64,000 nt of DNA. It comes from Acidobacteriota bacterium. GTDB taxonomy: Bacteria; Acidobacteriota; UBA890; WLXD01. The translations under genes and the position numbers were made by a program. The notes beneath the pieces were generated by a model. The model saw only the letters and a program-made list of their open reading frames with translations. It was not told the origin of the DNA and made no database searches. The DNA lies in assembly GCA_036012155.1 (NCBI GenBank), contig DASCOT010000033.1, positions 106 through 64,105 on the forward strand, read 5' to 3'. The stretch's first letter is position 1; every line of letters begins with the position of its first letter. Below are positions 35,263-47,761 of the stretch, piece by piece.

Positions 35263-37956
35263 ATGATACGTCTTGCGCTCGGGCGCGCCGAATCGTTGGT
35301 GCTGGACCGTCCACGGACTGTGCTTACGATCGCCCTCGCACTGTGCGTGGTCTCGCTCTGGTTGGGGACGGGAATCGAGCTGCTGACGTCTCGACAAGAG
35401 CTGGTGCCACATGGTGACCCGGACCAAGAGCGCTGGAACGCGCTGCGCTCTCGATTCGCCAGCGCCGAGCCGCTCATCGTCGCGCTGGAGGCCACCGAAG
35501 ACGGCAACTCGGTCGAGGACCTAGAGACCACCGCGCGTGCGGTGGCGGAGCGCTTGCGAACCGATCCACAGGTACGCAGCGTCTTCTACCGCATCGACGT
35601 CGATTGGCTTGCCGACCACGCGCTCGCCCTGGCGCCCGCAGACATGGTCGAGCAAGCGTTTGAGACGTTGCAGGAGTTGTTCGCCGTCGATGGCACACTG
35701 ACCCTGACCGGCTGGGCCACGCTGAACGTAGGCATCGCCGCGCGCATCGAGGATTCGCTCCAATCCAGGAGCGCCCTGTCGTCGGATGATGCGGCCGTTG
35801 GCGCCGCCCGGATACTGCAGCTCGTCGAAGCCGAGTTCGACTTCCTGACCGACCCTCTTGGGTTTGTCGATCGGCTGACGAAGGCGCCGCTAATTCTCAT
35901 GGGCGGCGGCCAGCGCGGATCATTGACCGGCGATGGCTACCTTTCGACCATCGATGAGCGCGTCGTATTCGTGCTGGTCAGCCCGGCGAGCGCCGATAGC
36001 AGCTTGGAGGCACAGCGGGCGCTGGTCGATAGCGTCCGCGGGGCCCTGGCGGACGTACTGTCGGAGCATCCCGGTCTGGGTTACGGCCTCACCGGGCCGG
36101 CCGCCATGGCCGTAGAAGAGATGAACGGTATCGGACGAGATACCCGCCGCACGTCGTTAATCGCCATCGTCGGTGTATTCGGAATCGCGTTGCTGGTGTT
36201 CCGCCGACGGCGCCACGCTCTCCTTGGCCTGGCGACGCTGGCCGCCGGAGTGCTGTGGGCGATCGGCGCAGTACGGCTCGAGATCGGCTCGCTCAACGTC
36301 ATCACCACGGCGCTGATCCCCATTCTCGTCGGCTTGGGCATCGATTACGCGGTGCACCCGCTCTCGCAATACGAGCTCGAGCGCCAGCACAAGGGTCGAA
36401 GGGAAGCGGTGCGCGCGACACTTCGAAAGACCAGCGCCGCCGTCGTCGCCTCGGCGCTCACCACCGCAGTGGCTTTCGCCTGTCTGCTGCTCATGGACTT
36501 TCGCGGTTTCTCCCAGCTGGGTCTGGTAACCAGCGTCGGAGTGCTGCTCTGCCTGCTTGCCGCCCTGCTGGTGCTACCGGCGCTGCTGCTCTTGCGTGGC
36601 GCGCCCGAGCACGACGGTGCGACAGCACGCGCCGCCGTCGATCAGATCTGGGATGATCGGGTGGCCAGCTGGGTGTGCGCGTCACCGCGCCTGGTGGTCG
36701 CGCTGGCGATCGGTCTGACCACGGTGGCAGGGCTCGCTGCGAGCCATGTCGAGTTGAAGTCGAGCTTACTGGAGTTGCTCCCGGCAGGCTCCGATTCACT
36801 CCGCTACCTGGAGATCATCAACGAAGAGTCGGCGCTCAGCCACGACTTCAACCTGGTGGTCGCTGAAGATCTGGAGCAGCTTAGCGCCCTACGCCGGCGC
36901 GCCGAGCGCGAGGCCAGCGTCCGTCGATTCGATTCGATACTCACGTTCCTGCCCGAGCAGCCGGCCGCATCGGAGGCTGCCGCCGCTGGCGCCCGCAGGA
37001 CATTGGAGGCCATCGAGGTTGCCGAGGTCGCCTTCGACGGCGCACGGCTGAGCGACTCGCTATCGCGACTGGAATCCGCCTTGACCAGCGCCGCCGATGA
37101 CGCCTTCGTCGCCGGACTGGGGGAGGTATCCGGGGCTTTGGAAAGAGCCCGCGAGGTAACCGCATCCGCGCTGTCGCTGAGCGTAGAGGCGGGACCGGAG
37201 CAACTCGCCGACTGGGCGACGGCGCACGAGATGCTTCGCAGTGAGGCGCGCAGGCTGTTGCACGAGCTGCGCAACGCCGCCGCCGAGCCTCTCCCGACCC
37301 GGGCTTCCCTGCCGCCGGACATCGTCGATCGGTTTCTTACCGAGGACGACCGTTACGTAGGCTACTTGTTCCCGGCGGGCGATATCTACGACACCGGCTT
37401 TCTCGAGAGGTTCAACGGGGCGTCGCGTCGCGTCAGCAGCAACGCCATCGGCTTTCCGGTGCTCTTCGAGAGCCACTCTGCCTTGATCACCTCGGGGTTC
37501 ACGGTAGCGTTCGCCAGCGCCGCACTGCTCGTGTTCTTGGTGTTGCTGCTCGATCTACGCAACACGCGGCACACGATCTTGGCGCTGATACCGGTGTTCG
37601 TAGGGACGATATGGATGCTCGGGCTCATGCGAGCATTCGGCCTGTCGTTCAATTTCGCTAACCTGGTGGCGGTGCCGATCGTCCTGGGAGTCGGCATCGA
37701 CGCCGGGGTGCACGTCGTTCACCGGCTGCGCCTCGAGGGTGGCGACGGCATCATGACGGCCGTTTCACACACCGGCCGAGCGATTCTCATCGCTTCGCTC
37801 ACGACCATGGTGGGGTTCGGAAGTCTCGTTTTCGCTTCCCACCGTGGCATGGCGAGCTTGGGAGCCCTCCTGCTGCTAGGTGTCGCAGCGTGTGCGATCG
37901 CAGCTTTGATCGTCTTGCCAAACCTGGTGATCGTGAGCGGTATCGCGCGCCGCTGA
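35263..37956 (+). CDS. MMPL/RND lipid transporter (HpnN/BstA-like)
   Basis: 897 aa with two TM bundles: ILVGLGIDYAVH and IVLGVGIDAGVH; SALTTAVAF and ASLTTMVGFGSL. Confidence 0.88.
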   Translation: MIRLALGRAESLVLDRPRTVLTIALALCVVSLWLGTGIELLTSRQELVPHGDPDQERWNALRSRFASAEPLIVALEATEDGNSVEDLETTARAVAERLRTDPQVRSVFYRIDVDWLADHALALAPADMVEQAFETLQELFAVDGTLTLTGWATLNVGIAARIEDSLQSRSALSSDDAAVGAARILQLVEAEFDFLTDPLGFVDRLTKAPLILMGGGQRGSLTGDGYLSTIDERVVFVLVSPASADSSLEAQRALVDSVRGALADVLSEHPGLGYGLTGPAAMAVEEMNGIGRDTRRTSLIAIVGVFGIALLVFRRRRHALLGLATLAAGVLWAIGAVRLEIGSLNVITTALIPILVGLGIDYAVHPLSQYELERQHKGRREAVRATLRKTSAAVVASALTTAVAFACLLLMDFRGFSQLGLVTSVGVLLCLLAALLVLPALLLLRGAPEHDGATARAAVDQIWDDRVASWVCASPRLVVALAIGLTTVAGLAASHVELKSSLLELLPAGSDSLRYLEIINEESALSHDFNLVVAEDLEQLSALRRRAEREASVRRFDSILTFLPEQPAASEAAAAGARRTLEAIEVAEVAFDGARLSDSLSRLESALTSAADDAFVAGLGEVSGALERAREVTASALSLSVEAGPEQLADWATAHEMLRSEARRLLHELRNAAAEPLPTRASLPPDIVDRFLTEDDRYVGYLFPAGDIYDTGFLERFNGASRRVSSNAIGFPVLFESHSALITSGFTVAFASAALLVFLVLLLDLRNTRHTILALIPVFVGTIWMLGLMRAFGLSFNFANLVAVPIVLGVGIDAGVHVVHRLRLEGGDGIMTAVSHTGRAILIASLTTMVGFGSLVFASHRGMASLGALLLLGVAACAIAALIVLPNLVIVSGIARR

Positions 37957-38022
37957 CGGGTCGCGGGTATTCTTGCTGACAACATCGGCAACCCTCGCAA
38001 CGACAACCGGATTGCACCGACG

Positions 38023-38892
38023 ATGAACAACCCTCTGCGCTTGCCGGCGGCATTGTGCGCCACAGCGGCTACGCTCGTTGCAGGCAGCGCCGGTGTGGGC
38101 GCATCCGGTAACCAGGAAACTCTCCGGCTGGTAGCTTGCGCGCCGGGGTATCCGAGCAATACAGAGCAGGCGCAGCCCACCATGGACGACTTCGCAGCGA
38201 TGCTCGCCGCTGCTGCAGGGTGGCCGGTGGGGACATTGGCGGCCGAATACCATCCGGGCGAGGAAGTCGGGGTGAGTCGCCTGCGCGACCACGCCACGTC
38301 GATGGCGCTGGTTCCCCTGCCCTTGTATCTGAAGTACGAGCAGGAGCTCGACCTCACGCCGGTGGCGCAGGCGGTAAAGGCCTCCGGCAGCGCCACCGAG
38401 CGCTGGAGCCTGGTGGCCCCGGCCGGAGCGATCAGCGGGCCCGAATCACTCTCGGGTTGGGAGCTGTTGGGGCTTCCGGCCTACGCACCCCGCTTCGTGC
38501 GCGGGCCAGCGCTGTCGATTTGGGGGCAGCTGCCGGCAACGCTCTCCGTCGGCTTCACTCGACGGGTCCTCGCCGGGCTGCGCCGCGCCACGGCTGGCGA
38601 GCAGGTCGCCGTGCTTCTCGATGGCCCACAGACGGCTGCGTTGGCTTCGTTGCCTGGAGCCGAGTCACTCGAAGTAGTCACGACGTCGCCGCCTCTCTTG
38701 GCTTGGCTCGTCGTCTTGGTGGGTGACCGCGTCGACGCGCCGCTACGCCAACAGCTGATCAGCGGGCTCCTCGGCGCACACCACGCGGCGAGGTTCTCAG
38801 ACGTGCTCGAAACGATGCAGCTGGAACGCTTCGAGGCCCTGGATGCCGAGGCGCTGAGCCATGCCCGGGCGACGTACTCGGCGACTCGATGA
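38023..38892 (+). CDS. Periplasmic PhnD/SsuA-like substrate-binding protein (BstB-like)
   Basis: Signal peptide and alpha/beta pattern (LVACAPGYP, ALVPLPLY, VAVLLDG). No ABC ATPase or permease adjacent. Family assignment by recalled similarity. Confidence 0.6.
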   Translation: MNNPLRLPAALCATAATLVAGSAGVGASGNQETLRLVACAPGYPSNTEQAQPTMDDFAAMLAAAAGWPVGTLAAEYHPGEEVGVSRLRDHATSMALVPLPLYLKYEQELDLTPVAQAVKASGSATERWSLVAPAGAISGPESLSGWELLGLPAYAPRFVRGPALSIWGQLPATLSVGFTRRVLAGLRRATAGEQVAVLLDGPQTAALASLPGAESLEVVTTSPPLLAWLVVLVGDRVDAPLRQQLISGLLGAHHAARFSDVLETMQLERFEALDAEALSHARATYSATR

Positions 38893-39701
38893 GCCCTCCT
38901 CGTTCCGCCGCCCTGCTGGCCGGCGCGGCCCTCGTCTCGTTCGCTTGTGCCTCGGCGGTGCAGCCGCTCGACACGACTTCGGAGCTCGGCCGCGTCGACC
39001 CGGAGAGCATCGACGTGGAGGCGGCTGCGAGCCTCGCGGCCGACGCAGCGCGAGAGTTCGACCGACGACCCGATGCCGACGCGGTGCATCGAGCCGAGGA
39101 TCTTTGGATCCGATCGGCTATCGCCGATCCGTATAGCGCGCTGGCGATCATCGGCGCCGTACAAGCACAGACCTGGCTCGGGGAAAACCTCGACGATGAG
39201 CAGGCCCGCAAGGACAAGGCCACCGAGGCTGTGCAAACGGCCCAGTGGTGCCGCACACGGGAGCCGACAAACCCGGACTGTCACTATTGGCTGGCGATCG
39301 CCGTCGGCGTACAGGCCAATCAGAGACTGGCCACCGCTTCGGACGGACTGCGTGTCATGGAGCGGGAGCTCCGCGCCGCGATCGCCGGGAACGAAGACCT
39401 CGACTATGCGGGGCCCCGCCGCGTGCTATCGCAGATGTTGGTGCGGGCACCGGGCTGGCCCACCGGGCCGGGTGACGATGAGGAAGGCCTCGAACACGCA
39501 CGACGGGCGGTCGAGCTGCACCCTGAGTTCCCCCCCAATCTCCTGGCGCTGGCTGAGGCCTACGCCGCGCTCGACGACGTTCCGGCGAGCCGAGCGACGT
39601 ATCAAAGAGCCATCGACCTGGCCGGCGAGTGGCAGCAACGCGGCCACCCGGATGCAGACGCTTGGATAAAAGCCGGACGCGGCCTCTCAGGCCGAGACTA
39701 G
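38889..39701 (+). CDS. Helical-repeat (TatT/TPR-like) lipoprotein (BstC-like)
   Basis: Lipobox VSFAC, CHYWLAIAVG, DYAGPRRVL...APGWP..GD, AVEL.P.FPPN.LALAEA. ATGA overlap with the previous gene. Confidence 0.65.
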   Translation: MSPPRSAALLAGAALVSFACASAVQPLDTTSELGRVDPESIDVEAAASLAADAAREFDRRPDADAVHRAEDLWIRSAIADPYSALAIIGAVQAQTWLGENLDDEQARKDKATEAVQTAQWCRTREPTNPDCHYWLAIAVGVQANQRLATASDGLRVMERELRAAIAGNEDLDYAGPRRVLSQMLVRAPGWPTGPGDDEEGLEHARRAVELHPEFPPNLLALAEAYAALDDVPASRATYQRAIDLAGEWQQRGHPDADAWIKAGRGLSGRD

Positions 39702-39779
39702 CTGCTCTCGACGCCGCTCCGAGGCGCGGCGCGGCCAGCCATCATGCCGGGCACAGCTCGCAGAGCGCTCTCGACATCA

Positions 39780-40700
39780 TCATGTCGATCGTGCGGTGGT
39801 CGGAACCTCTACTGCGGGAGCGCCGGCGTCGAGGTCCAGGTTCATGGCCTCGACTATCTCGGAAACATCCTCGCGTGAGATCTTCGCGCCGGGGCCACAT
39901 CGCTCGACGAGGGCGAGGGCGACGACCGCGAGCCGTGTCGGTAATGCGCAGAAGGCAACGATGCCGCGAGGCGCATTGGCCGCCTGCAGCGCGTTGGTGT
40001 AGTGAGCGGCAACGATGAGATCTTTGCGCGCCAGGAGGAAGATCTCCCTGCGCTTCAGCGCAGTTGGCAGGTAGCGCCGCCCCTCACGCCGATCGGAGGC
40101 TGCATCCTTCAAAATGTTCACCAGCTGTAGCGCCTCGCCGAACCGCGCCGCTCGCTGGCGTAGGAACTCGACCGACGACGCCAGCTGCGGGCGCCCGAGA
40201 ACGAACAAGTCGGTGCTGAGCTCACCAACGATACCGGCGACCACGTAGCAATACTCACGCAGGTCATCGAGGGAGTCGAGCTTGAGGACGCCATCAACAG
40301 AGCGATTGACGAATCCGGACATACCGGCCGCCGTCCGCAGAGTGTGCTCTCGGATGATCGCCCGTGCTGCCGGTCGCAGACGTTGGTACTCGCGAATCAC
40401 GGCGGCGGATTCGCCGAGTAGCTCCAGGTAGCCGGGGTGATCGATCGGCACAGAAGCTTCCCATCGGTGTCCCAACTCGCCGGCACGCTGCTCGTCGGGC
40501 TCTCGAACAAGGCTCATGAACTCTTCGAGGGCATCGATCCGCTGCTGTCGGTCCCACTCCGACGCATCCTCGAAGGTATCGGCGATACGGAACAGGAGAT
40601 AAGCGATCCCGAGCTCGCGGCGGGTCGGCTCGGGCAGCATCGGAATCGACAGCGCGAACGTGCGGCTGGTTTTCTCGAGAAGGTCTTCGATGCGATCCAT
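39780..40700 (-). CDS. Squalene synthase (single-enzyme, eukaryote-like type) / phytoene synthase family
   Basis: Flap SRTF, RIADTFED, YCYVVAGIVG, LQLVNILKD, D..EGR.YLP. Confidence 0.82.
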   Translation of the reverse strand: MDRIEDLLEKTSRTFALSIPMLPEPTRRELGIAYLLFRIADTFEDASEWDRQQRIDALEEFMSLVREPDEQRAGELGHRWEASVPIDHPGYLELLGESAAVIREYQRLRPAARAIIREHTLRTAAGMSGFVNRSVDGVLKLDSLDDLREYCYVVAGIVGELSTDLFVLGRPQLASSVEFLRQRAARFGEALQLVNILKDAASDRREGRRYLPTALKRREIFLLARKDLIVAAHYTNALQAANAPRGIVAFCALPTRLAVVALALVERCGPGAKISREDVSEIVEAMNLDLDAGAPAVEVPTTARST

Positions 40701-40779
40701 TCGTGCGCCTGGCTTGGGCTGCCCGAGACCCATTATCCACCCTCGCGCTGGCGCGGCCCAGGCGACGGGGTACCGTTGC

Positions 40780-41580
40780 TCAACGCTCTACAATCGTCCC
40801 CGGCACCGGCTCGCCCCGCAGCGCCCGTCGCAAGATACCGGGTCGGCGGCCATCGAGCAGACGGGATCGCACGCCAATGCGGGCCAACGACAGTGCGGTC
40901 TCGAGACGATGTCGCATGCCACCCGTCACGTCGGTTGCTGCCGCACCACCCACCAAACTACGGGCATGCCTGGCGTCGCGCAGACGCACTCGAGCAACGC
41001 TCGCCCCGGCCTCATCGAGAATGCCGTCCGTGTCACCGAGCCACAGCGCTTCGGAAATCTGCCAATCCGACGATCGCAGTGAACGAGCGAACGTCAGCAA
41101 GGCGGTCTCGGTGGAGCAGATCGAGCAGCCACGTTGTCGGTCCATGACAATGTCGCCATACGTGACCGGCAACATCCCGCTATCGAGCGCTCGCTGAAGC
41201 GGCTCCAGGTAGACGCGCGGCCGAAGACCGGGGCCACGACCGACAATGGCGCTCGAAGGAGCCACCGAATAGCCGGCCACGCCCGCATCACGTAGGGCCG
41301 CCATCACAATCCCGTGGAGCTCGGAAGCGGCAGCCTGGGTTTGCGAAACGCCAGTCAGCGCCCGCCGTCCGACCATTCCGTCCTGAATGCCCGATGCGGC
41401 TGCAGCAACGTGCCCGAACGACCCACTGCCATGTCCTAGCAACATCGCGGATGGAGAGCGGCGGGTGAGCGTCGCGATCTCGCGGGCGATTCGTGAAAGC
41501 TCGCTGCGCCTGACCGTCCGACGGCGGCGCTTTTGGGTGATCAGGCTTCCTCCGAGCTTGATCATCACGAGATCGCTCAA
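40780..41580 (-). CDS. ipk: Isopentenyl phosphate kinase (amino-acid-kinase fold)
   Basis: IKLGGSLIT, GHGSGSFGH (IPK His signature), PVTYGD, DVTGGM. TTG start overlapping the mvaD stop. Confidence 0.85.
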   Translation of the reverse strand: MSDLVMIKLGGSLITQKRRRRTVRRSELSRIAREIATLTRRSPSAMLLGHGSGSFGHVAAAASGIQDGMVGRRALTGVSQTQAAASELHGIVMAALRDAGVAGYSVAPSSAIVGRGPGLRPRVYLEPLQRALDSGMLPVTYGDIVMDRQRGCSICSTETALLTFARSLRSSDWQISEALWLGDTDGILDEAGASVARVRLRDARHARSLVGGAAATDVTGGMRHRLETALSLARIGVRSRLLDGRRPGILRRALRGEPVPGTIVER

Positions 41581-42602
41581 GACCGCAGCCCATCGACCGC
41601 GTCGAGGAGGGATGTCGGTAGGCGCCGTGGGCCCGGGCCCACACCGTCGCGGATCACTGCCTGAACACCGTCGATCGCTGCCAGGCGGGCTGCCACTTCT
41701 GCCTCGTCGTCGGCAGAACAGATGACGTGCACGTTGGCTCCGGCGTCCATCGTTGCCCACGCCGAGGTTCCGTCGCTCCGCAAGGTACGCACGTGGTCCA
41801 GCACGCGAAGCGTCGCCGGTAGCCAGTAGAAGATCGGAGGCTGCGAAGACATGGCGACCAGGTGCAACTCGATTGCGTCTTCCTCGATCACCGGGCCGAG
41901 CCGATTCAAGTCGCGCGCCTCGATGGCGTCACGTACCCGCTCCAGGCGCGCCGGGATCAGCTCCTGCCGGCGCGCGAAGTGTGGACTACCGACAGCGCCG
42001 GCGTGTCCGTCGAGTGATGACACCGCCTTCGGGCCAGTCTGTACGATCACGATCACATCGCGTAAGTCCCAGTGTGAGGCCGTCGCCAGCGGCGCAGCAC
42101 GCCACGGGTCCGTCTCGCCGCCATCCGGCCACTGCACATAGCCACCGAAGACCGATCGCGCCGCGGACCCAGAGCCCGACAGCCGCGCCAGATTCGACAG
42201 CTCATCGGCCGCCGGCTCGCGCCCGAGGGCTCCCAGCACCGCCAGGGTGAGGGCGGCGAATCCAGAAGCCGACGAGGCGATGCCCGCGGCGGCGGGGAAG
42301 CTATTCCGCGTCGCGACCCGGAAGCCCACATCGACGTCGGCCCAGAGTCGCAACCTACGCAGATGCTCGACGATACGTCGCTGGAAGGTGCCTTGGGCCC
42401 GATGCCACCGGTCATCGGTGCACATCCAGACCACGTCCGTGGCTCCCGTCGCGATCGTCTCGACGCTCGTCCGTGTAACGCACTCGCGCAACGACATCGA
42501 GATCGAGGCGTTGAGTGGGATGGCTTTTTCCAGGTCAGCCGCCCCCCAGTACTTCACGAAGGCAATGTTGGAGGGTGCCTCGATAGTAGCGCGGCCACTC
42601 AT
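41577..42602 (-). CDS. mvaD: Mevalonate (di)phosphate decarboxylase, probably phosphomevalonate decarboxylase
   Basis: SNIAFVKYWG, NSFP.AAGIASSASGFAA, ARLSGSGSAARS, TMDAGANVH. Confidence 0.9.
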   Translation of the reverse strand: MSGRATIEAPSNIAFVKYWGAADLEKAIPLNASISMSLRECVTRTSVETIATGATDVVWMCTDDRWHRAQGTFQRRIVEHLRRLRLWADVDVGFRVATRNSFPAAAGIASSASGFAALTLAVLGALGREPAADELSNLARLSGSGSAARSVFGGYVQWPDGGETDPWRAAPLATASHWDLRDVIVIVQTGPKAVSSLDGHAGAVGSPHFARRQELIPARLERVRDAIEARDLNRLGPVIEEDAIELHLVAMSSQPPIFYWLPATLRVLDHVRTLRSDGTSAWATMDAGANVHVICSADDEAEVAARLAAIDGVQAVIRDGVGPGPRRLPTSLLDAVDGLRS

Positions 42603-43717
42603 GCCACGGCCTCGACGCGGACGCCCTCGACACCTAGTGACAGATCATGCTCCGGAAGCGCGGCGAGCGGCTCAGGAAGAGACTCGATGTCCTCCGGCAG
42701 AAGCACCATCAAACACCCGGCACCTGGACCCGCGAGCGACCCCGAACCGGAGATCTTGGCCCCGCCGCCCACTGCCTCGATGGCGCGAACAACCTCGCAG
42801 ACCGGCGTTGGCACCACCCCGAGCGACTCGAGGTAGCGCTGGGCATCGCGGATCGCCAGAATCGCATCGATCGTCTCCGATGATCCAGTAACGGCGTCCT
42901 GGAACGCCAGGACCGCGAATTCGGCGTCGTTCAGCGACTCCTCGAAGTGATTCGGGCTGCGGTCGCGCTGGGCTCGAACTGCTGCGACCACCGTGCCAGT
43001 GGGCTCTGCGGAGCGACCCGTGTCGAAGACACGCAACCGCCGCAGCGTGTCGGGGTGCGCCGCCAGCGGCTCGATCGACAGATCTTCTCCGGCCCGACGA
43101 GCACGTAAAACGCCGCCGTGGAACACGGTCGCGCCATCCACACCCGACGGTGCGCCGTGCTGGCGGCGCTCTACCTCACGCGCGATCGGACCGATCAGCG
43201 ACCAGCGCTCCGCCCTGCCAGAGGCGGCACAGATCGCCGCCACCACCGCCACAGCGGCAGCAGCCGAGCTCCCGAAGCCGGTACCCACGGGCACTGCCGA
43301 GCTCACTTGAAGGCGTAGCGCGCCCAACGGATGGTCCTGCGTGTCGGGCACCTCGCCGAGTGCGCTGACAGCCTCCGCCAGCGCGATCAGTACCAATCGG
43401 TCAGCGCGGTCGTCCTGAAGACGAGCGAACGCCTCAGGTGTAGGGGAGGTGTCGTAACGCTCCCACCGATGCCGCATGCGGCTCGCATAATCCATGATCT
43501 CCGGCCAGGAGACATGACCGCAGTGCCCCAGCTCCGGCAGATCCACTTCCACCCCCGCTTCGCATCCACGATACAGATCGACGCGCAACCGCCGGCTCGT
43601 GGCCGCCGCCAGCGCTGGGCGACCGTAAACAACAGCATGCTCGCCCATGAGGATGAGCTTCCCGGGGGCCGATACGCGCGTCAACAGGAGCCGTTCGGGC
43701 GGCGGCGTTGTACTCAT
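42599..43717 (-). CDS. mvk: Mevalonate kinase
   Basis: APGKLILMGEHAVVYG, PVGTGFGSSAA, E..QHG.PSGVD, KISGSG. Confidence 0.9.
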   Translation of the reverse strand: MSTTPPPERLLLTRVSAPGKLILMGEHAVVYGRPALAAATSRRLRVDLYRGCEAGVEVDLPELGHCGHVSWPEIMDYASRMRHRWERYDTSPTPEAFARLQDDRADRLVLIALAEAVSALGEVPDTQDHPLGALRLQVSSAVPVGTGFGSSAAAAVAVVAAICAASGRAERWSLIGPIAREVERRQHGAPSGVDGATVFHGGVLRARRAGEDLSIEPLAAHPDTLRRLRVFDTGRSAEPTGTVVAAVRAQRDRSPNHFEESLNDAEFAVLAFQDAVTGSSETIDAILAIRDAQRYLESLGVVPTPVCEVVRAIEAVGGGAKISGSGSLAGPGAGCLMVLLPEDIESLPEPLAALPEHDLSLGVEGVRVEAVA

Positions 43718-43728
43718 CCGGCGAGTGC

Positions 43729-44982
43729 CTAGCTACCGGCCCGGGCGCGCCGTCCCAGTCGCTCATGGGCACCGGCGAGATCCTGGGAGGTAAATGCGGC
43801 CAGCAGCGACAACTCGCCGGCAAGAACGGCAGCGCCGAGGATCTCGGCCAACCGCAGCACTGCGACGCCAGGTCGATCGGGTTCCGGCTCTACGCCGAGC
43901 AAAGCCAGCGCCTCGCGTTGCGTGTCGAGCGCGGTGCCACCGCCGATGGCGGCCAGTGGGACGGCGGGCAAGTACATTGAAGCCACCACGCTGCCTTCTT
44001 CACCCGCTTCGATGGAGGTGACTCCCATCGATCCTTCCACCACGTGCGCCGGATCCTGTCCGGTGGCAAGGAACACCGCCGCAAGGACGTTCGCCACGTG
44101 GGCATTGAAACCGATAGAACCGGCGGCGATCGAGCCCAGCAGGTTCTTACGGTACTGCACCTCGAGCAGCTCGGGCGCACTGGTCTTCAGGCGCTCCAAG
44201 ACCTCGGCACTGAGCGTGACCTGGGCGTGTATGCGCTTGCCGCGGCCTTCCTGGAAGTTGACTGCGGCGGGCTTCTTGTCCGTACAGTAGTTGCCGGACA
44301 GAGCCACGCAGCGCACGCCAGTGGCGGGCTCGATCAGCTCGCGTACCAGCTGATCACAGGCGATCGTAGCCATGTTCATGCCCATGGCGTCGCCCGATCG
44401 AAACCTGAAGCGCAGGAAGATCGTGGTCCCGAAGGCATATGGGCGGATATCCACGAGCTGCAGGAAACGGCTCGTGCCTTCAGCCACCGTGCGAATCTCT
44501 TCCTCGCTGTCGCTCACCCACCGGAGAAAATCGCGCGTCTGCCGGAGGCCACTAGAGCGAAACACGGGCGCGCGGGTCATGCCGACATCCTCCACATACA
44601 CCGTGGCACCGCCAGCAGCCCGGATCGCTGAGCAGCCTCGGTTGATACTGGCGACGAGCGCGCCCTCCGTTGTAGCAAGGGGAACATAGACCTCCTCGTC
44701 TACATGGTCGCCGCGCACGAGGAGTGGCCCAGCCACTCCGATCGGCACCTGGGCCACACCGATCATGTTCTCGCAGTGGCTGTCGGCGACGCGCGACGCG
44801 TCAAACGAGTACTTCCCGATGTTTGTCAACGCGGCACCGGTAAGACGCTCGAGCGCCTGTCGCCGAACGGCGGCGGCATCGTCGGCGTTGAGATCGGGCG
44901 GCAGCTGATGAAAGCGCCTCGTGCCCTGGACAATCTCTAGTACCAGCGAATCCAAGTCGAGTAGTCCGTCCTTGCGAGTCAT
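43729..44982 (-). CDS. hmgA: Class I (NADPH) HMG-CoA reductase
   Basis: CENMIG, PLATTEGALVAS, GDAMGMNM, SGNYCTDKK, GGGT, GELSLLAA..H. Confidence 0.93.
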   Translation of the reverse strand: MTRKDGLLDLDSLVLEIVQGTRRFHQLPPDLNADDAAAVRRQALERLTGAALTNIGKYSFDASRVADSHCENMIGVAQVPIGVAGPLLVRGDHVDEEVYVPLATTEGALVASINRGCSAIRAAGGATVYVEDVGMTRAPVFRSSGLRQTRDFLRWVSDSEEEIRTVAEGTSRFLQLVDIRPYAFGTTIFLRFRFRSGDAMGMNMATIACDQLVRELIEPATGVRCVALSGNYCTDKKPAAVNFQEGRGKRIHAQVTLSAEVLERLKTSAPELLEVQYRKNLLGSIAAGSIGFNAHVANVLAAVFLATGQDPAHVVEGSMGVTSIEAGEEGSVVASMYLPAVPLAAIGGGTALDTQREALALLGVEPEPDRPGVAVLRLAEILGAAVLAGELSLLAAFTSQDLAGAHERLGRRARAGS

Positions 44983-46025
44983 GGGCGGCCTGCTCGATCG
45001 ATCAGAGTTACCTCGCGCAGATCGGCCAGCGTCCGAGTCCCGGCACAGAACATCGACACCCTGAGCTCAGTCAAGGCACGCTCGATCCGTGCCACCACCG
45101 CATCCGCGGACTCCATCGCCGCCCCGAGAAAGGGATGCGCCAGGCCCACCATGTGAGCTCCGAGCGCCACGGCCTTGGCCACGTCGATGCCAGTACGGAT
45201 CCCGCCGCTACCGATGACGGTAACGCCCGGCACTTTAGCGACGGCCCGTATGCTGTCGGGTGTGGAAATGCCCCAGTCGGCGAACGTCGCACCGAGCTCG
45301 AGGTCGGCGGCACGCTGCGCTTCGATGCGCGCCCAGTTGGTGCCCCCATGCCCCGCGGTGTCGATAATGCGGACACCGGCCTCCGCCAGCCGCTCGGCCA
45401 CCGCCAGCGATATGCCCATACCGATCTCCTTGACGATCACCGGCACCTCGAGCTTGCCGACAATCGCCTCGATCTTGGGCAGCAGGTTGGCAAAGTTGAC
45501 ATCACCCTCAGGCTGAATGGCCTCCTGAAGAGGGTTCAGGTGCAGCACCAGCGCGTCGGCGTCGATCATGCGAACCGCCGCCTGGCACTCGGCAAGACCG
45601 TAGCCGCAGTTCAGTTGAACTGCTCCTAGATTAGCCAGCAGCGGCACCGTGGGGGCGTAGTCGCGAACCTGGAAGGTCGCCTGCAGCGACTCGTCCTCCA
45701 ACGCCTTTCTTTGCGAACCTACGCCGACGGCAACGCCGGCACGCTCGGCGGCAATTGCCAGGTTGCGGTTGATTCGCGCCGCGTCGGCAGTGCCGCCGGT
45801 CATGCAAGAAATCAGCAGCGGAGCCATCAACGGCTTGCCGAGAAACTCAGTGCTGAGATCGATTTCGGCCAAGTCCAGCTCGGGAAGCGCACAGTGTTCC
45901 AACTGCCAGCTGTCGAAGCCGCGGCCGTCCTGCTGCATGCGGTCGTCGAGGGCTAGCTGGATGTGCTCGGCTTTGCGGTCGCGCTCGGCCGGCGACTTCG
46001 CAGCCGGTGAGTCTGTACTGCTCAT
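44979..46025 (-). CDS. fni: Type 2 isopentenyl-diphosphate delta-isomerase
   Basis: RKAEHI, MTGG, GSQR, NLGAVQL, HLNPLQE..QPEGD, VKE.G.G, GGTNW, SGGIRTG.D. Confidence 0.93.
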   Translation of the reverse strand: MSSTDSPAAKSPAERDRKAEHIQLALDDRMQQDGRGFDSWQLEHCALPELDLAEIDLSTEFLGKPLMAPLLISCMTGGTADAARINRNLAIAAERAGVAVGVGSQRKALEDESLQATFQVRDYAPTVPLLANLGAVQLNCGYGLAECQAAVRMIDADALVLHLNPLQEAIQPEGDVNFANLLPKIEAIVGKLEVPVIVKEIGMGISLAVAERLAEAGVRIIDTAGHGGTNWARIEAQRAADLELGATFADWGISTPDSIRAVAKVPGVTVIGSGGIRTGIDVAKAVALGAHMVGLAHPFLGAAMESADAVVARIERALTELRVSMFCAGTRTLADLREVTLIDRAGRP

Positions 46026-46040
46026 GCGTACTCGCAACGC

Positions 46041-46067
46041 GGCATCGGCATCGGCATCGGCATCGGC
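46041..46067. repeat. (GGCATC)x4.5 hexamer microsatellite
   Basis: ggcatcggcatcggcatcggcatcggc, 16 bp upstream of the fni ATG at 46025. Confidence 0.9.
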
Positions 46068-46193
46068 GACGCACGAGAGGCGGGCGCGCGGCATTCTAGA
46101 CCAGCACAGCGCGCCGAGGGCGTGAGGATCCGAGTGTCGTTGACACCTTGGGGCATGTCAATGCCGCGTGCTGACACCGGGCGGCGATCACAA

Positions 46194-46946
46194 CTACGCC
46201 AACGTGGCAACCAATCCCTCGGCAAAATCAGCCAGCGTGCCGGCGCACTTGCGCATGCGCGACCGTAGCCGGACGATGCTGCCCCACGAGCGTGGTCGCC
46301 AGACCGTCTTCCAGAACACCTGGCGCTTGTCGATGCTGCCGTCTTGCGCACGGCAATCCTCCAAGTAGTCAGGCAGCACCTCATCGGCGGCATCGCTGAT
46401 GGCCCGCGCGATCAGGTACGGAAGATTGTAGGCCACCGCCACCCTGGCGAAACACGCCGACTCCATGTCAGCGGCGGCGGGCTGATCGCGCCATGTGCGC
46501 CCCCACCACTCCGACTTGCTCGAGGGCGTCGCCAAGATCTCGTCGACCGTAACCAACCGTCCGAGGTCGTAGTCCAAATGAAGAGTTGCTTCCTCCAACC
46601 ATTGCAGGTCTGGACAGGCGAGCGTTTGTTCTCCCTCCATGACCTCGCTTGATACCACCAAGTCACCAACCGCAAGATCGACCGACAGCGCGCCTCCCAG
46701 ACCGACGGCAAGGACGCGTGTCGGAGCACATGTCTGGATTAGCCGTCGAATTCCGAGGTCGGCGTTGCGCTTACCGTCACCGGTAACCGCAAGCACTACC
46801 TGAACCCCGCGCAGCTTGCCGACCACGTAGTTACGGGGGCCGTCCTTGATCTCCTCGGACACCAACACGCGCTCGCGCAATGGTGCGAGCTCATCCTCCC
46901 GCGCCGCGACGATTGCCACGAGCTCTTCGCGATCTTCTGCCATCAT
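46194..46946 (-). CDS. Nucleoside phosphorylase/nucleosidase family, HpnG-like
   Basis: TGDG..NA, VG.GGAL..L.VGD.V, DMES, RAISD, and C-terminal helix VWRP..W..IVRL. Confidence 0.75.
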   Translation of the reverse strand: MMAEDREELVAIVAAREDELAPLRERVLVSEEIKDGPRNYVVGKLRGVQVVLAVTGDGKRNADLGIRRLIQTCAPTRVLAVGLGGALSVDLAVGDLVVSSEVMEGEQTLACPDLQWLEEATLHLDYDLGRLVTVDEILATPSSKSEWWGRTWRDQPAAADMESACFARVAVAYNLPYLIARAISDAADEVLPDYLEDCRAQDGSIDKRQVFWKTVWRPRSWGSIVRLRSRMRKCAGTLADFAEGLVATLA

Positions 46947-47029
46947 GAGAGTCTATCCGTAGGAGGCTGCGTGCAGCGGTCACCCCCCCTACCGCGCAAG
47001 GGATGGGTCACAAGACAGGGAGCCAACGG

Positions 47030-47761
47030 ATGGTGATGCGGTACGCGGTCTACCTCCCGTGCGTAACGGTCGGGGTGATGATCGGCGCGGTAGCGGCGAT
47101 TCATGTCGGCGCCATCGGCCCGTTGGGCGGCTTCAGCCTCTTCGTTCTGTCCTGGGCCCTGGGCGGAGTGCTCAGCGGCTTGCTGGGCCTGCTCACATGG
47201 CGACGGGCCCGTCGAGATTCGCGATCCCCGGCAGCAGGCCAACGGGGACTCGCCGGCGGCGCACTATTGGTGCTCGCGCTCATCATCACGGTATTGCGGA
47301 TCGACGCACCCGCGATCCACGACATCACCACGTCACCCGACGATGCGCCCTCATACCGCGCTGCCCTGGACCACGAGGACAACGCGGGCCGTGACCTAAC
47401 CTACCCACACGGCGGCGATGATGTCAGCGTCCAGCAAAGACGTGCCTACCCGGATCTGCGAACCATCGTGCTCGACCTCGACGCCGGCGCGGCGCATTCG
47501 GCCTCGCTCCAGGCGGCGGAGGCAATCGGCTTGACCATCGCCTTCAGCAGCCGCATGGATGGCCACATCGAGGCCTATGCCGTATCGAGTATCTTTGCCT
47601 TCGTCGACGATGTCGTGGTGCGCATTCGTCCTTCGGCGTCGGGATCTGCGGTTGACGTACGCTCCACGTCGCGCCTCGGCCGAAGTGATCTGGGGGCCAA
47701 CGCAGCGCGCATTCGGGCGTTCGCGTTGGCACTGGGAGCGCCGTTCGATTCCGGTAGCTAG
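47030..47761 (+). CDS. DUF1499-domain membrane protein
   Basis: Three TM helices, IHDITT, QRRAYPDL, FAFVDDVVVR, VDVRSTSRLGRSDLGANAARI. Confidence 0.85.
   Translation: MVMRYAVYLPCVTVGVMIGAVAAIHVGAIGPLGGFSLFVLSWALGGVLSGLLGLLTWRRARRDSRSPAAGQRGLAGGALLVLALIITVLRIDAPAIHDITTSPDDAPSYRAALDHEDNAGRDLTYPHGGDDVSVQQRRAYPDLRTIVLDLDAGAAHSASLQAAEAIGLTIAFSSRMDGHIEAYAVSSIFAFVDDVVVRIRPSASGSAVDVRSTSRLGRSDLGANAARIRAFALALGAPFDSGS

What the first reader, a model, noticed from the sequence alone, without database searches (positions are those of the whole stretch)
40780..46025. Alternative mevalonate operon (MVK -> PMD -> IPK) without phosphomevalonate kinase in a bacterium
Seen: a tightly coupled operon fni-hmgR(class I)-mvk-mvaD-ipk with 4-bp overlaps and no PMK gene. 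The decarboxylase reads KYWGA where canonical diphosphomevalonate decarboxylases have KYWGK, and KAVSSLDGH where they have KxxSSR. Known: that Lys and Arg contact the beta-phosphate of mevalonate-5-PP, and the PMD + IPK route is characterised in haloarchaea and Chloroflexi (Roseiflexus). Inference: the organism makes IPP through isopentenyl phosphate. A compact operon of this route outside Chloroflexi would be notable. HMG-CoA synthase and thiolase are not in the window.
Basis: partly seen in the sequence, partly recalled or inferred. Interest (0 to 1): 0.78.

Follow-up and report, generated by a model that had tools for sequence, protein, structure and literature searches.

The report
Acidobacterial mevalonate operon, PMD-IPK type
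An uncultured marine acidobacterium carries a tight operon that most likely makes the isoprenoid building block IPP by the "decarboxylate first, phosphorylate second" mevalonate route. That route is known from haloarchaea and Chloroflexi; here it sits in a bacterial group where the papers I could search do not report it and where databases mislabel the key enzyme.

Summary
On the minus strand lie fni (type 2 IDI), hmgR (class I), mvk, mvaD and ipk, followed by a squalene-synthase-like gene. Three of the four junctions are 4-bp overlaps. The 48 window ORFs scanned (39) or covered by precomputed Pfam (9 more) hold no PMK, HMG-CoA synthase, thiolase or MEP gene.

The decarboxylase keeps all catalytic residues but has Ala where diphosphomevalonate decarboxylases have Lys21. 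Its only GHMP-kinase partner carries the mevalonate-kinase motif GEHAVVYG. The downstream kinase passes the NCBIfam IPK cut-off.

The order IDI2-HMGR-MVK-MvaD-IPK is kept in 80 species-level genomes: 73 Acidobacteriota, plus Rhodothermota, Gemmatimonadota and Schekmanbacteria. IPK lies directly after MvaD in 70 of 74 loci with room. None has a second GHMP kinase within 10 kb.

Lys-bearing homologues act as a natural control. They sit in similar operons with two GHMP kinases (PMK and MVK) and usually no IPK (Fisher p about 1e-6).

So the PMD+IPK reading is well supported (about 0.78) but not proven. The SSR-to-SSL motif and the best PDB hit do not discriminate. Verdict: a new member of a known pathway type, widespread and mis-annotated, of moderate interest.

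The parts
44979..46094 (-). fni, type 2 (FMN-dependent) isopentenyl-diphosphate isomerase. An alternative start is the ATG at 46025, and the family match begins at residue 40.
   Evidence: TIGR02151 395.2 bits against a cut-off of 281.3, and PF01070. The stop overlaps the hmgR start as ATGA.
43729..44982 (-). hmgR, class I (NADPH) HMG-CoA reductase
   Evidence: PF00368 389.7 bits. TIGR00533 442.7 against a cut-off of 441.8. The class II model TIGR00532 gives only 32 bits.
42599..43717 (-). mvk, mevalonate kinase, the only GHMP kinase of the operon
   Evidence: TIGR00549 137.4 bits (E 6.5e-40), below the cut-off of 163. All PDB matches are mevalonate kinases, with a PMK only at E 0.0099. The N-terminal motif is PGKLILMGEHAVVYG, as in the MVKs of the control operons and unlike their PMKs, which read GEY.
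41577..42602 (-). mvaD, a GHMP-family ATP-dependent decarboxylase, predicted phosphomevalonate decarboxylase (Ala at the Lys21 position)
   Evidence: PF22700 plus PF18376, and TIGR01240 215.6 bits. Catalytic Ser107, Arg144, Lys188, Ser192 and Asp283 are kept, and position 21 is Ala. It is 41.6% identical to the A. thermophila PMD 6N0X. KYWGA occurs in 118 of the 120 closest homologues.
40780..41580 (-). ipk, isopentenyl phosphate kinase. The likely start is the TTG at 41580, which overlaps the mvaD stop. Gene callers on this sequence used the ATG at 41565.
   Evidence: NF040647 150 bits against a cut-off of 120, and PF00696. The seven best PDB matches are IPKs, with FomA far behind. The conserved K, GG, K, G, H (GSGSFGH) and DVTGG residues of Dellas Table 2 are present. 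Relatives start at a GTGA or ATGA overlap and are 266 aa long.
39780..40733 (-). Squalene/phytoene-synthase-family gene (squalene-synthase-like), 46 nt downstream of ipk, the likely last gene of the unit
   Evidence: PF00494 120.7 bits. TIGR01559 95.7 bits, below its cut-off. A homologue is found in the same locus, mostly directly after IPK, in most of the related loci (cluster 3 in 62 of 80 loci).
46194..46946 (-). PNP/MTAN-fold (HpnG-like) gene, co-oriented and about 100 nt upstream of fni. It is context; membership of the unit is uncertain.
   Evidence: PF01048. TIGR03468 (HpnG) 89 bits and NF004079 96 bits, both below their cut-offs. It holds the same position in the three closest relatives at 92-95% identity.

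Best explanation
The operon encodes the lower half of the haloarchaea/Chloroflexi-type ('alternative') mevalonate pathway plus HMG-CoA reductase and isomerase.

**Proposed steps.**
1. HMG-CoA is reduced to mevalonate by the class I HmgR.
2. MVK makes mevalonate 5-phosphate.
3. MvaD, acting as a phosphomevalonate decarboxylase, uses ATP to phosphorylate the 3-OH and eliminates phosphate and CO2, giving isopentenyl phosphate.
4. IPK phosphorylates isopentenyl phosphate to IPP.
5. The type 2 IDI equilibrates IPP with DMAPP.
6. The squalene-synthase-like gene downstream suggests that much of the flux goes to squalene or triterpenoids.

**Shown here.** Gene identities, the conserved gene order, the intact catalytic residues, the Lys21-to-Ala change, and its statistical link with IPK rather than PMK neighbours.

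**Inferred.** The substrate preference of MvaD, the activity of IPK, the absence of a PMK elsewhere in the genome, and the supply of HMG-CoA by genes outside the window.
For: **Gene set and coupling.**

**The kinases.**
- MVK carries the MVK motif and matches only MVK structures.
- IPK passes its curated cut-off, keeps the conserved His, and matches only IPK structures ahead of FomA.

**The decarboxylase.**
- MvaD keeps Ser107, Arg144, Lys188, Ser192 and Asp283 but has Ala at Lys21.
- Lys21 is one of the diphosphate contacts listed for MDDs and is replaced in PMDs (PMC3857490, Table 4).
- It is also one of the two positions changed in the engineered A. thermophila enzyme 6N0Z relative to 6N0X.
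- PMC11052028 names the same Lys/His pair as the key residues.

**Synteny.**
- IPK lies directly downstream of MvaD in 70 of 74 related genome loci with room, and elsewhere in the locus in 2 more.
- No second GHMP kinase lies within 10 kb in any of the 80 loci.

**Natural control.**
- Four Lys-bearing homologues lie in IDI2-HMGR-GHMP-MvaD-GHMP operons without IPK. In the three I examined, the upstream kinase carries the PMK motif and the downstream one is MVK.
- In an independent sample of 80 metagenomic MvaD loci, a non-basic residue at position 21 went with IPK 11 times and with two GHMP kinases 0 times.
- In the same sample, K/R21 went with two GHMP kinases 21 times (one of those also with IPK) and with IPK alone 2 times. 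Fisher p is about 1e-6.

**Window and transcription.**
- No PMK among the 48 window ORFs covered: 39 scanned with Pfam here and 9 more with precomputed Pfam.
- Two metatranscriptome contigs at 99-100% identity span the mvk/mvaD junction. This is weak, because DNA carry-over is possible.
Against: - There is no biochemical evidence.
- The whole genome could not be searched, so a PMK elsewhere remains possible, whether GHMP-type or the P-loop PF04275 type.
- Overall similarity does not discriminate. MvaD is 41.6% identical to the A. thermophila PMD but 42.6% and 41.6% identical to Lys-bearing, PMK-linked homologues.
- The curated PMD model NF040704 is missed by far (150 against 475), while the MDD model TIGR01240 is passed.
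- Position 27 is Ala, not the Arg of Chloroflexi and haloarchaeal PMDs.
- His196 also occurs in PMK-linked enzymes.
- The Lys rule has exceptions: two Lys-bearing MvaDs sit next to an IPK with no GHMP kinase nearby (L144 and L146).
- PMC11052028 describes Chloroflexota enzymes with this residue pattern as having dual specificity.
Confidence: 0.78

Rival explanations
1. Classical route with a PMK encoded elsewhere. MvaD would be a true diphosphomevalonate decarboxylase despite Ala21. IPK would only salvage or regulate isopentenyl phosphate, as proposed for plants and for CPR bacteria that carry IPK beside a full classical set.
For: - TIGR01240 is passed and public pipelines name the relatives 'diphosphomevalonate decarboxylase'.
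- The genome could not be searched.
- One metagenomic locus (L107) has IPK together with two GHMP kinases, and Hoshino & Gaucher describe IPK beside classical genes in CPR.
Against: - No second GHMP kinase lies within 10 kb in any of 80 related genomes, whereas Lys-bearing homologues keep PMK inside the operon.
- Loss of the diphosphate-contact Lys is fixed in 118 of 120 close homologues.
- IPK is translationally coupled to MvaD.
Confidence: 0.1
2. A dual-specificity decarboxylase. MvaD would accept both mevalonate 5-phosphate and 5-diphosphate. The organism would then run mainly the IPK branch but could use MVA-5-PP if it were made.
For: - Apart from Lys21, the residue pattern is MDD-like: Ser139, Ser141 and Ser192 are kept and there is no Arg27.
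- PMC11052028 states that Chloroflexota enzymes lacking the Lys but keeping the His show additional or dual activity.
- The clade branches between PMK-linked and PMD-type clades without resolved order.
Against: Without a PMK there is no source of MVA-5-PP, so a second activity would have no physiological role. No kinetic data exist for this clade.
Confidence: 0.09
3. The cluster is a horizontally acquired, silent or decaying accessory module, and IPP comes from the MEP pathway only.
For: Most Acidobacteriota are thought to use MEP (my background knowledge). Earlier scan notes on related genomes mention a co-existing MEP pathway; I did not check this.
Against: - All six ORFs are intact with conserved catalytic residues.
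- GC content (0.64-0.68) equals that of the surroundings.
- The order is conserved over 80 species at 52-82% MvaD identity, which argues for purifying selection.
- There is a weak transcript signal.
Confidence: 0.03

Closest known systems
Chloroflexi alternative mevalonate pathway: Roseiflexus castenholzii MPD + IPK (Dellas et al. 2013, PMC3857490) and the Anaerolinea thermophila MPD structures 6N0X/6N0Y (Thomas et al. 2019)
   Same: - One MVK, an MDD-like decarboxylase that lacks the Lys21 diphosphate contact, an IPK, and no PMK.
- His at the position that is Met in Firmicutes-type MDDs.
- The decarboxylase is annotated as MDD by automatic pipelines.
- It is 41.6% identical to 6N0X, the best PDB hit.
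   Different: - It forms a separate, well-supported clade (96-97 support) that is not nested in the Anaerolineae clade.
- It has Ala21 rather than Asn or Leu, no Arg27, and one extra residue in the ARLSGSGS phosphate loop.
- The genes form a tight conserved operon, whereas Chloroflexi MVA genes are mostly scattered (PMC6107057; the N21 loci are mostly solitary).
- The hosts are Acidobacteriota, Rhodothermota and Gemmatimonadota.
Haloarchaeal PMD + IPK (Haloferax volcanii; VanNice et al. 2014; NCBIfam NF040704)
   Same: The predicted reaction order is the same (MVK, then PMD, then IPK), and the partner is an IPK of the same family (NF040647 passed).
   Different: It scores only 150 bits against the 475-bit cut-off of NF040704. 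The HMGR is class I but the host is bacterial. No haloarchaeal sequence was available for a tree.
Classical bacterial mevalonate operons with PMK and Lys21 MDD (Enterococcus and Staphylococcus structures 5V2L and 3QT5; uncultured IDI2-HMGR-PMK-MvaD-MVK operons L088-L091 and L095)
   Same: - The operon frame is the same: IDI2-HMGR-kinase-MvaD-kinase.
- The catalytic residues are the same.
- Identity is 39-43% to the uncultured Lys-bearing homologues and 32-36% to the Firmicutes enzymes.
   Different: Those operons have Lys21 and two GHMP kinases (PMK with GEY, MVK with GEHAVVYG) and no IPK. The window has Ala21, one GHMP kinase and an IPK.

Membership tests
Phosphomevalonate decarboxylase (PMD/MPD, EC 4.1.1.99) | [quoted passage not shown] | tested here: met
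   PF22700 plus PF18376. Ser107, Arg144, Lys188, Ser192 and Asp283 are all conserved.
Phosphomevalonate decarboxylase (PMD/MPD, EC 4.1.1.99) | Loss of the conserved MDD lysine (S. epidermidis Lys21) that contacts the terminal phosphate | tested here: met
   The window reads KYWGA. Ala occurs in 118 of the 120 closest homologues. The residue list comes from PMC3857490 Table 4.
Phosphomevalonate decarboxylase (PMD/MPD, EC 4.1.1.99) | Conserved His of PMDs (Met in Firmicutes-type MDDs) | tested here: met
   The window reads SSLDGH. The His is also present in 44 Lys-bearing homologues, including PMK-linked ones, so it does not discriminate.
Phosphomevalonate decarboxylase (PMD/MPD, EC 4.1.1.99) | Arg at position 27 (R. 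castenholzii Arg83), placed to bind the single phosphate | tested here: not met
   Position 27 is Ala. A Lys or Arg sits at position 26 in most clade members.
Phosphomevalonate decarboxylase (PMD/MPD, EC 4.1.1.99) | Curated model NF040704 (IPP_alt_MvaD) above its cut-off | tested here: not met
   150.1 bits against a cut-off of 475. My guess is that the model reflects haloarchaeal sequences.
Phosphomevalonate decarboxylase (PMD/MPD, EC 4.1.1.99) | Genomic partner is IPK, and no PMK is in the genome | tested here: inconclusive
   IPK is coupled downstream. No PMK lies in the 64-kb window or within 10 kb in 80 relatives. The whole genome was not searchable.
Phosphomevalonate decarboxylase (PMD/MPD, EC 4.1.1.99) | Preference for mevalonate 5-phosphate over the 5-diphosphate | not testable with these tools
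   This needs an enzyme assay.
Diphosphomevalonate decarboxylase (MDD, TIGR01240) | Curated model above its cut-off | tested here: met
   215.6 bits against a cut-off of 171.35. This explains the public name 'diphosphomevalonate decarboxylase'.
Diphosphomevalonate decarboxylase (MDD, TIGR01240) | Lys21 diphosphate contact, and a PMK partner that supplies MVA-5-PP | tested here: not met
   Position 21 is Ala. No PMK lies in the operon or the window. The genome-wide test was not possible.
Isopentenyl phosphate kinase (NF040647, AAK fold) | Curated model above its cut-off, and the conserved residues of Dellas Table 2 (K6, G8, G9, K15, G54, H60, D213, T215, G216) | tested here: met
   150 bits against a cut-off of 120. 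The motifs MIKLGGSLITQK, GHGSGSFGH and DVTGG are present. K221 is Arg. The seven best PDB matches are IPKs.
Mevalonate kinase (TIGR00549) | Curated model above its cut-off | tested here: not met
   137.4 bits against a cut-off of 163.05. It is still the best family by far, at E 6.5e-40.
Mevalonate kinase (TIGR00549) | MVK-type N-terminal motif (GEHAVVYG) rather than the PMK type (GEY), and similarity to solved MVKs | tested here: met
   The window reads PGKLILMGEHAVVYG. The control operons read GEHAVVYG in MVK and GEYS/A in PMK. Eleven PDB matches are MVKs, with a PMK only at E 0.0099.
Class I HMG-CoA reductase (TIGR00533) | Curated model above its cut-off, and the class II model low | tested here: met
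   442.7 bits against a cut-off of 441.8. TIGR00532 gives 32 bits.
Type 2 IPP isomerase (TIGR02151) | Curated model above its cut-off | tested here: met
   395.2 bits against a cut-off of 281.3.

The most novel reading that the evidence does not exclude
The Ala21 decarboxylases of Acidobacteriota, Rhodothermota and Gemmatimonadota would be a lineage of phosphomevalonate decarboxylases separate from the Chloroflexi and haloarchaeal ones. They would have arisen, or been kept, by an operon-level swap between 'PMK + Lys21' and 'IPK + non-Lys21' inside the same IDI2-HMGR-kinase-MvaD-kinase frame. The 'alternative' route would then be a common bacterial way to feed squalene and triterpenoid synthesis, not a curiosity of two groups. 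A single Lys/Ala position, perhaps with the one-residue loop insertion, would largely set which pathway a genome runs.
Probability: 0.3. Interest if true: 0.62.

Novelty: new member of a known kind. Interest (0 to 1): 0.47.

Why it matters
- Reviews and phylogenomic papers up to 2022-2024 state that the PMD+IPK mevalonate route occurs in bacteria only in (some) Chloroflexi (PMC6107057, PMC9254496).
- The same gene logic is fixed in a large, mostly uncultured set of Acidobacteriota and also occurs in Rhodothermota, which has cultured relatives such as Salinibacter, and in Gemmatimonadota.
- Annotation pipelines call the decarboxylase 'diphosphomevalonate decarboxylase' and so yield an apparently broken pathway. 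Metabolic reconstructions of these abundant soil and marine bacteria would be corrected by the re-reading.
- The paired Lys21/PMK and Ala21/IPK operons give a natural experiment on what sets substrate specificity in this enzyme family.
- They also bear on how the classical and alternative routes interconvert. The enzymes are further candidates for ATP-saving isoprenoid pathway engineering.

Tried and rejected
- **Promoter and terminator scan** of 39500-47300: no promoter-like site, and two terminator-like sites inside coding sequence, fewer than in shuffles. Uninformative.
- **Best PDB hit as an argument.** The best hit is the A. thermophila PMD, but I rejected this as decisive because Lys-bearing PMK-linked homologues are just as similar.
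- **The 'SSR to SSL' motif.** Rejected as a discriminator.
- **His196.** Rejected as a discriminator, since 44 Lys-bearing homologues carry it.
- **Independent origin of the clade from Chloroflexi PMDs.**
  - The FastTree run placed it weakly (support 90) beside a Lys-bearing clade.
  - The IQ-TREE run left the deep order open.
  - An AU test could not reject uniting it with the A. thermophila clade (p 0.336).
  - So this is not shown.
- **Is the operon's 'mvk' the orthologue of the PMK-like kinase at the same position in the control operons?** Rejected by motif and by full-length similarity to their MVK.
- **Literature.** Searches for Thermoanaerobaculia, Acidobacteria, Salinibacter or Gemmatimonadetes together with mevalonate, IPK or PMD found no report of this route. 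Thomas et al. 2019 is not held in the library.
- **Metatranscriptome.** Only two short contigs lie on mvk/mvaD. The strong depth at 46040-46071 is a hexanucleotide repeat artefact.

Full report
**1. What is there**

The window is uniformly GC-rich, 0.62-0.68. Six co-oriented ORFs lie on the minus strand between 39780 and 46094. Family searches identify them as follows.

| Gene | Coordinates | Evidence |
|---|---|---|
| Type 2 IPP isomerase (fni) | 44979-46094 | TIGR02151 395 bits, cut-off 281 |
| Class I HMG-CoA reductase (hmgR) | 43729-44982 | TIGR00533 442.7, cut-off 441.8; class II model 32 bits |
| GHMP kinase, closest to mevalonate kinase (mvk) | 42599-43717 | TIGR00549 137 bits, E 6.5e-40, below the 163 cut-off |
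| MVD-family decarboxylase (mvaD) | 41577-42602 | PF22700 + PF18376; TIGR01240 215.6, cut-off 171; haloarchaeal PMD model NF040704 150, cut-off 475 |
| Isopentenyl phosphate kinase (ipk) | 40780-41580 | NF040647 150, cut-off 120 |
| Squalene-synthase-like gene | 39780-40733 | PF00494 |

The junctions are:
- fni/hmgR: ATGA overlap.
- mvk/mvaD: ATGA overlap.
- hmgR to mvk: 11-nt spacer.
- mvaD to ipk: either TTGA, with a TTG start at 41580, or an ATG 11 nt after the stop.

The closest relatives have GTGA or ATGA at exactly the overlapping position, lack the internal ATG, and their products are 266 aa. The overlapping start is therefore the likelier one.

A PNP/MTAN-fold, HpnG-like gene lies about 100 nt upstream (46194-46946).

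Thirty-nine window ORFs were scanned with Pfam and nine more had precomputed Pfam. None of these 48 is a second GHMP kinase, an HMG-CoA synthase, a thiolase or a MEP enzyme.

**2. Whose genome**

The identical decarboxylase is found on 22 contigs from marine and hydrothermal-plume metagenomes. The nearest named genomes are 'Acidobacteriota bacterium' MAGs at 79-82% MvaD identity. The organism is an uncultured marine acidobacterium.

**3. The three lower-pathway enzymes**

*IPK.* Its best seven solved relatives are all IPKs, with FomA far behind. It has the conserved residues listed by Dellas et al., including the His of GSGSFGH.

*MVK.* It matches eleven solved mevalonate kinases and a PMK only at E 0.0099. 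It carries PGKLILMGEHAVVYG.

*MvaD.* Aligned with S. epidermidis and E. faecalis MDD and with the A. thermophila PMD, it keeps Ser107, Arg144, Lys188, Ser192 and Asp283. It should therefore be an active ATP-dependent decarboxylase. It has Ala at Lys21.
- Lys21 is one of the diphosphate contacts that Dellas et al. list as conserved in MDDs and replaced in PMDs (PMC3857490, Table 4).
- It is one of the only two positions that differ between the wild-type A. thermophila enzyme (6N0X: KYWGN, GH) and the engineered one (6N0Z: KYWGK, GM).
- PMC11052028 names the same Lys/His pair as the key residues.
- KYWGA is present in 118 of the 120 closest database homologues, and the His in all of them.

**4. 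What does not discriminate**

- The residue after SS is Leu, Ile or Arg within the clade, and Ser or Thr in Lys-bearing homologues.
- His196 also occurs in 44 Lys-bearing representatives.
- Position 27 is Ala, not the Arg of Chloroflexi and haloarchaeal PMDs.
- The protein is 41.6% identical to the A. thermophila PMD but 42.6% and 41.6% identical to two Lys-bearing homologues. 'Best PDB hit is a PMD' is therefore weak evidence.

**5. Comparative genomics, the main evidence**

A scan of one genome per species found 525 relatives. The best 80 loci are 73 Acidobacteriota (36 Thermoanaerobaculia, 5 Holophagales, 32 not classified below the phylum (31) or with only a provisional order name (1)), 4 Rhodothermales, 2 Gemmatimonadota and 1 Schekmanbacteria.

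- Across them the order IDI2-HMGR-MVK-MvaD-IPK is kept, mostly followed by the squalene-synthase-like gene.
- IPK lies directly after MvaD in 70 of 74 loci with enough sequence. It lies elsewhere in the locus in two more.
- No locus has a second GHMP kinase within 10 kb.
- In 66 of 80 loci a polyprenyl synthetase precedes IDI2. HMG-CoA synthase and thiolase are never in the flanks.

**6. A natural control**

Among 145 representatives of the wider family, three residue classes appear: Lys+Met (46, including the Firmicutes structures), Lys+His (44) and non-Lys+His (54).

*Lys-bearing members.* Four were looked up. All lie in IDI2-HMGR-GHMP-MvaD-GHMP operons without an amino-acid-kinase gene. I characterised the two kinases in three of these operons (L088, L090, L091). 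The upstream kinase reads PGKxMLAGEY, the PMK type, and scores poorly as MVK. The downstream one reads GEHAVVYG and passes the MVK cut-off. The window's kinase resembles their MVK over its full length, not their PMK.

*Non-Lys members outside the clade.* Two lie next to an IPK with a single GHMP kinase. A third is solitary.

*Independent metagenome sample.* Eighty MvaD loci from metagenomes gave this table:

| Residue at position 21 | With IPK only | With two GHMP kinases |
|---|---|---|
| Non-basic | 11 | 0 |
| Lys or Arg | 2 (L144, L146) | 21 (one of these also has IPK) |

Fisher's exact test gives p about 1e-6. Asn21 (Chloroflexi-like) loci are mostly solitary. This fits the scattered MVA genes reported for Chloroflexi (PMC6107057). 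The rule is strong but not absolute.

**7. Phylogeny**

The Ala21 clade is well supported: 97 in FastTree and 96 in IQ-TREE. It is not nested in the clade that contains the A. thermophila PMD. The order of the deep branches is unresolved. An AU test does not reject uniting the two non-Lys clades (p 0.336). A separate origin of PMD function is possible but not shown. No Roseiflexus or haloarchaeal sequence could be obtained for the tree.

**8. Mechanism proposed**

HmgR makes mevalonate. MVK makes mevalonate 5-phosphate. MvaD phosphorylates the 3-OH and eliminates phosphate and CO2 to give isopentenyl phosphate. IPK gives IPP, and IDI2 gives DMAPP. The squalene-synthase-like gene consumes the farnesyl diphosphate made downstream.

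The gene identities, residues, coupling, conservation and association statistics are shown. The substrate preference, the absence of a PMK elsewhere and the source of HMG-CoA are inferred.

Two metatranscriptome contigs at 99-100% identity span the mvk/mvaD junction (42420-42714). This is weak evidence for co-transcription.

**9. What is known**

- Aoki et al. (2022) still list 'halophilic archaea and some Chloroflexi bacteria'.
- My searches of the held library found no paper that links this route to Acidobacteriota, Thermoanaerobaculia, Gemmatimonadetes or Salinibacter.
- Public pipelines already name the kinase 'isopentenyl phosphate kinase [Thermoanaerobaculia bacterium]' but the decarboxylase 'diphosphomevalonate decarboxylase'. 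This is the same inconsistency that Dellas et al. described for Chloroflexi.
- Earlier agents of this scan reached the same reading for other acidobacterial genomes. I treat this as agreement, not as evidence.

**10. Limits**

The decisive genome-wide search for PMK, HMGS and MEP genes could not be run.
- Thomas et al. 2019 is not held in the library. Its content is known to me only through the PDB sequences and two citing papers.

**11. Verdict**

This is a new member of a known pathway type. Its main value is that it shows the route to be widespread and mis-annotated outside Chloroflexi, and that it offers a clean natural contrast for specificity studies. Interest is moderate.

Noticed in passing
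window 46194-46946 (-): The HpnG-like PNP/MTAN-fold gene upstream of fni is 92-95% identical in the three closest relatives. The mevalonate genes next to it are only 65-89% identical. In most other relatives this position is held by a polyprenyl synthetase instead.
   Followed up: partly
window 35263-39701 (+): An MMPL transporter, a PhnD-like binding protein and a TPR lipoprotein converge on the squalene-synthase-like gene. The TPR and PhnD-like genes are conserved in the four closest relatives (L007-L010). The MMPL gene is conserved in L007-L009; L010 is too short to show it. The triad is absent from the other 76 loci, although L027 has a 28% MMPL match. It may be a triterpenoid transport module.
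   Followed up: partly
window 46040-46071 and 46140-46161: A (GCCGAT)x4 hexanucleotide repeat (read as DADADADA) lies in the 5' extension of the fni ORF and attracts spurious short metatranscriptome contigs. Just upstream is a 22-nt palindrome, TTGACATGCCCCAAGGTGTCAA, a possible operator. The true fni start may be the ATG at 46025.
   Followed up: no
L144:5044-6969 and L146:1030-2953 (metagenome loci): Two Lys21-bearing MvaD genes (KYWGK, GH) lie directly after an IPK gene, with no GHMP kinase within the fetched flanks (up to 6 kb each side). They are exceptions to the Lys/PMK rule and may be PMDs that kept the Lys, or dual-specificity enzymes.
   Followed up: partly
L088, L090, L091, L095 (metagenome and genome loci): Uncultured bacteria carry IDI2-HMGR-PMK-MvaD-MVK operons. 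In three of them, the divergent PMK (GEY motif, 55-69 bits on the MVK model and 19-42 on the PMK model) would be hard to name automatically. Two of them continue into futalosine-pathway genes.
   Followed up: partly
window 41577-42602, loop ARLSGSGS (residues about 135-142): The Ala21 clade has a one-residue insertion just before the Ser139/Ser141 phosphate-binding loop. The insertion is shared with another IPK-linked non-Lys homologue (P0140) but is absent from Lys-bearing homologues and from the A. thermophila PMD.
   Followed up: no
L092:2097-8824: A non-Lys (Asn21) MvaD sits in a cluster of HMGR, HMGS, thiolase, a small ORF, MVK, MvaD and IPK next to conjugation/T4SS genes. This is a complete pathway that may lie on a mobile element.
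   Followed up: no
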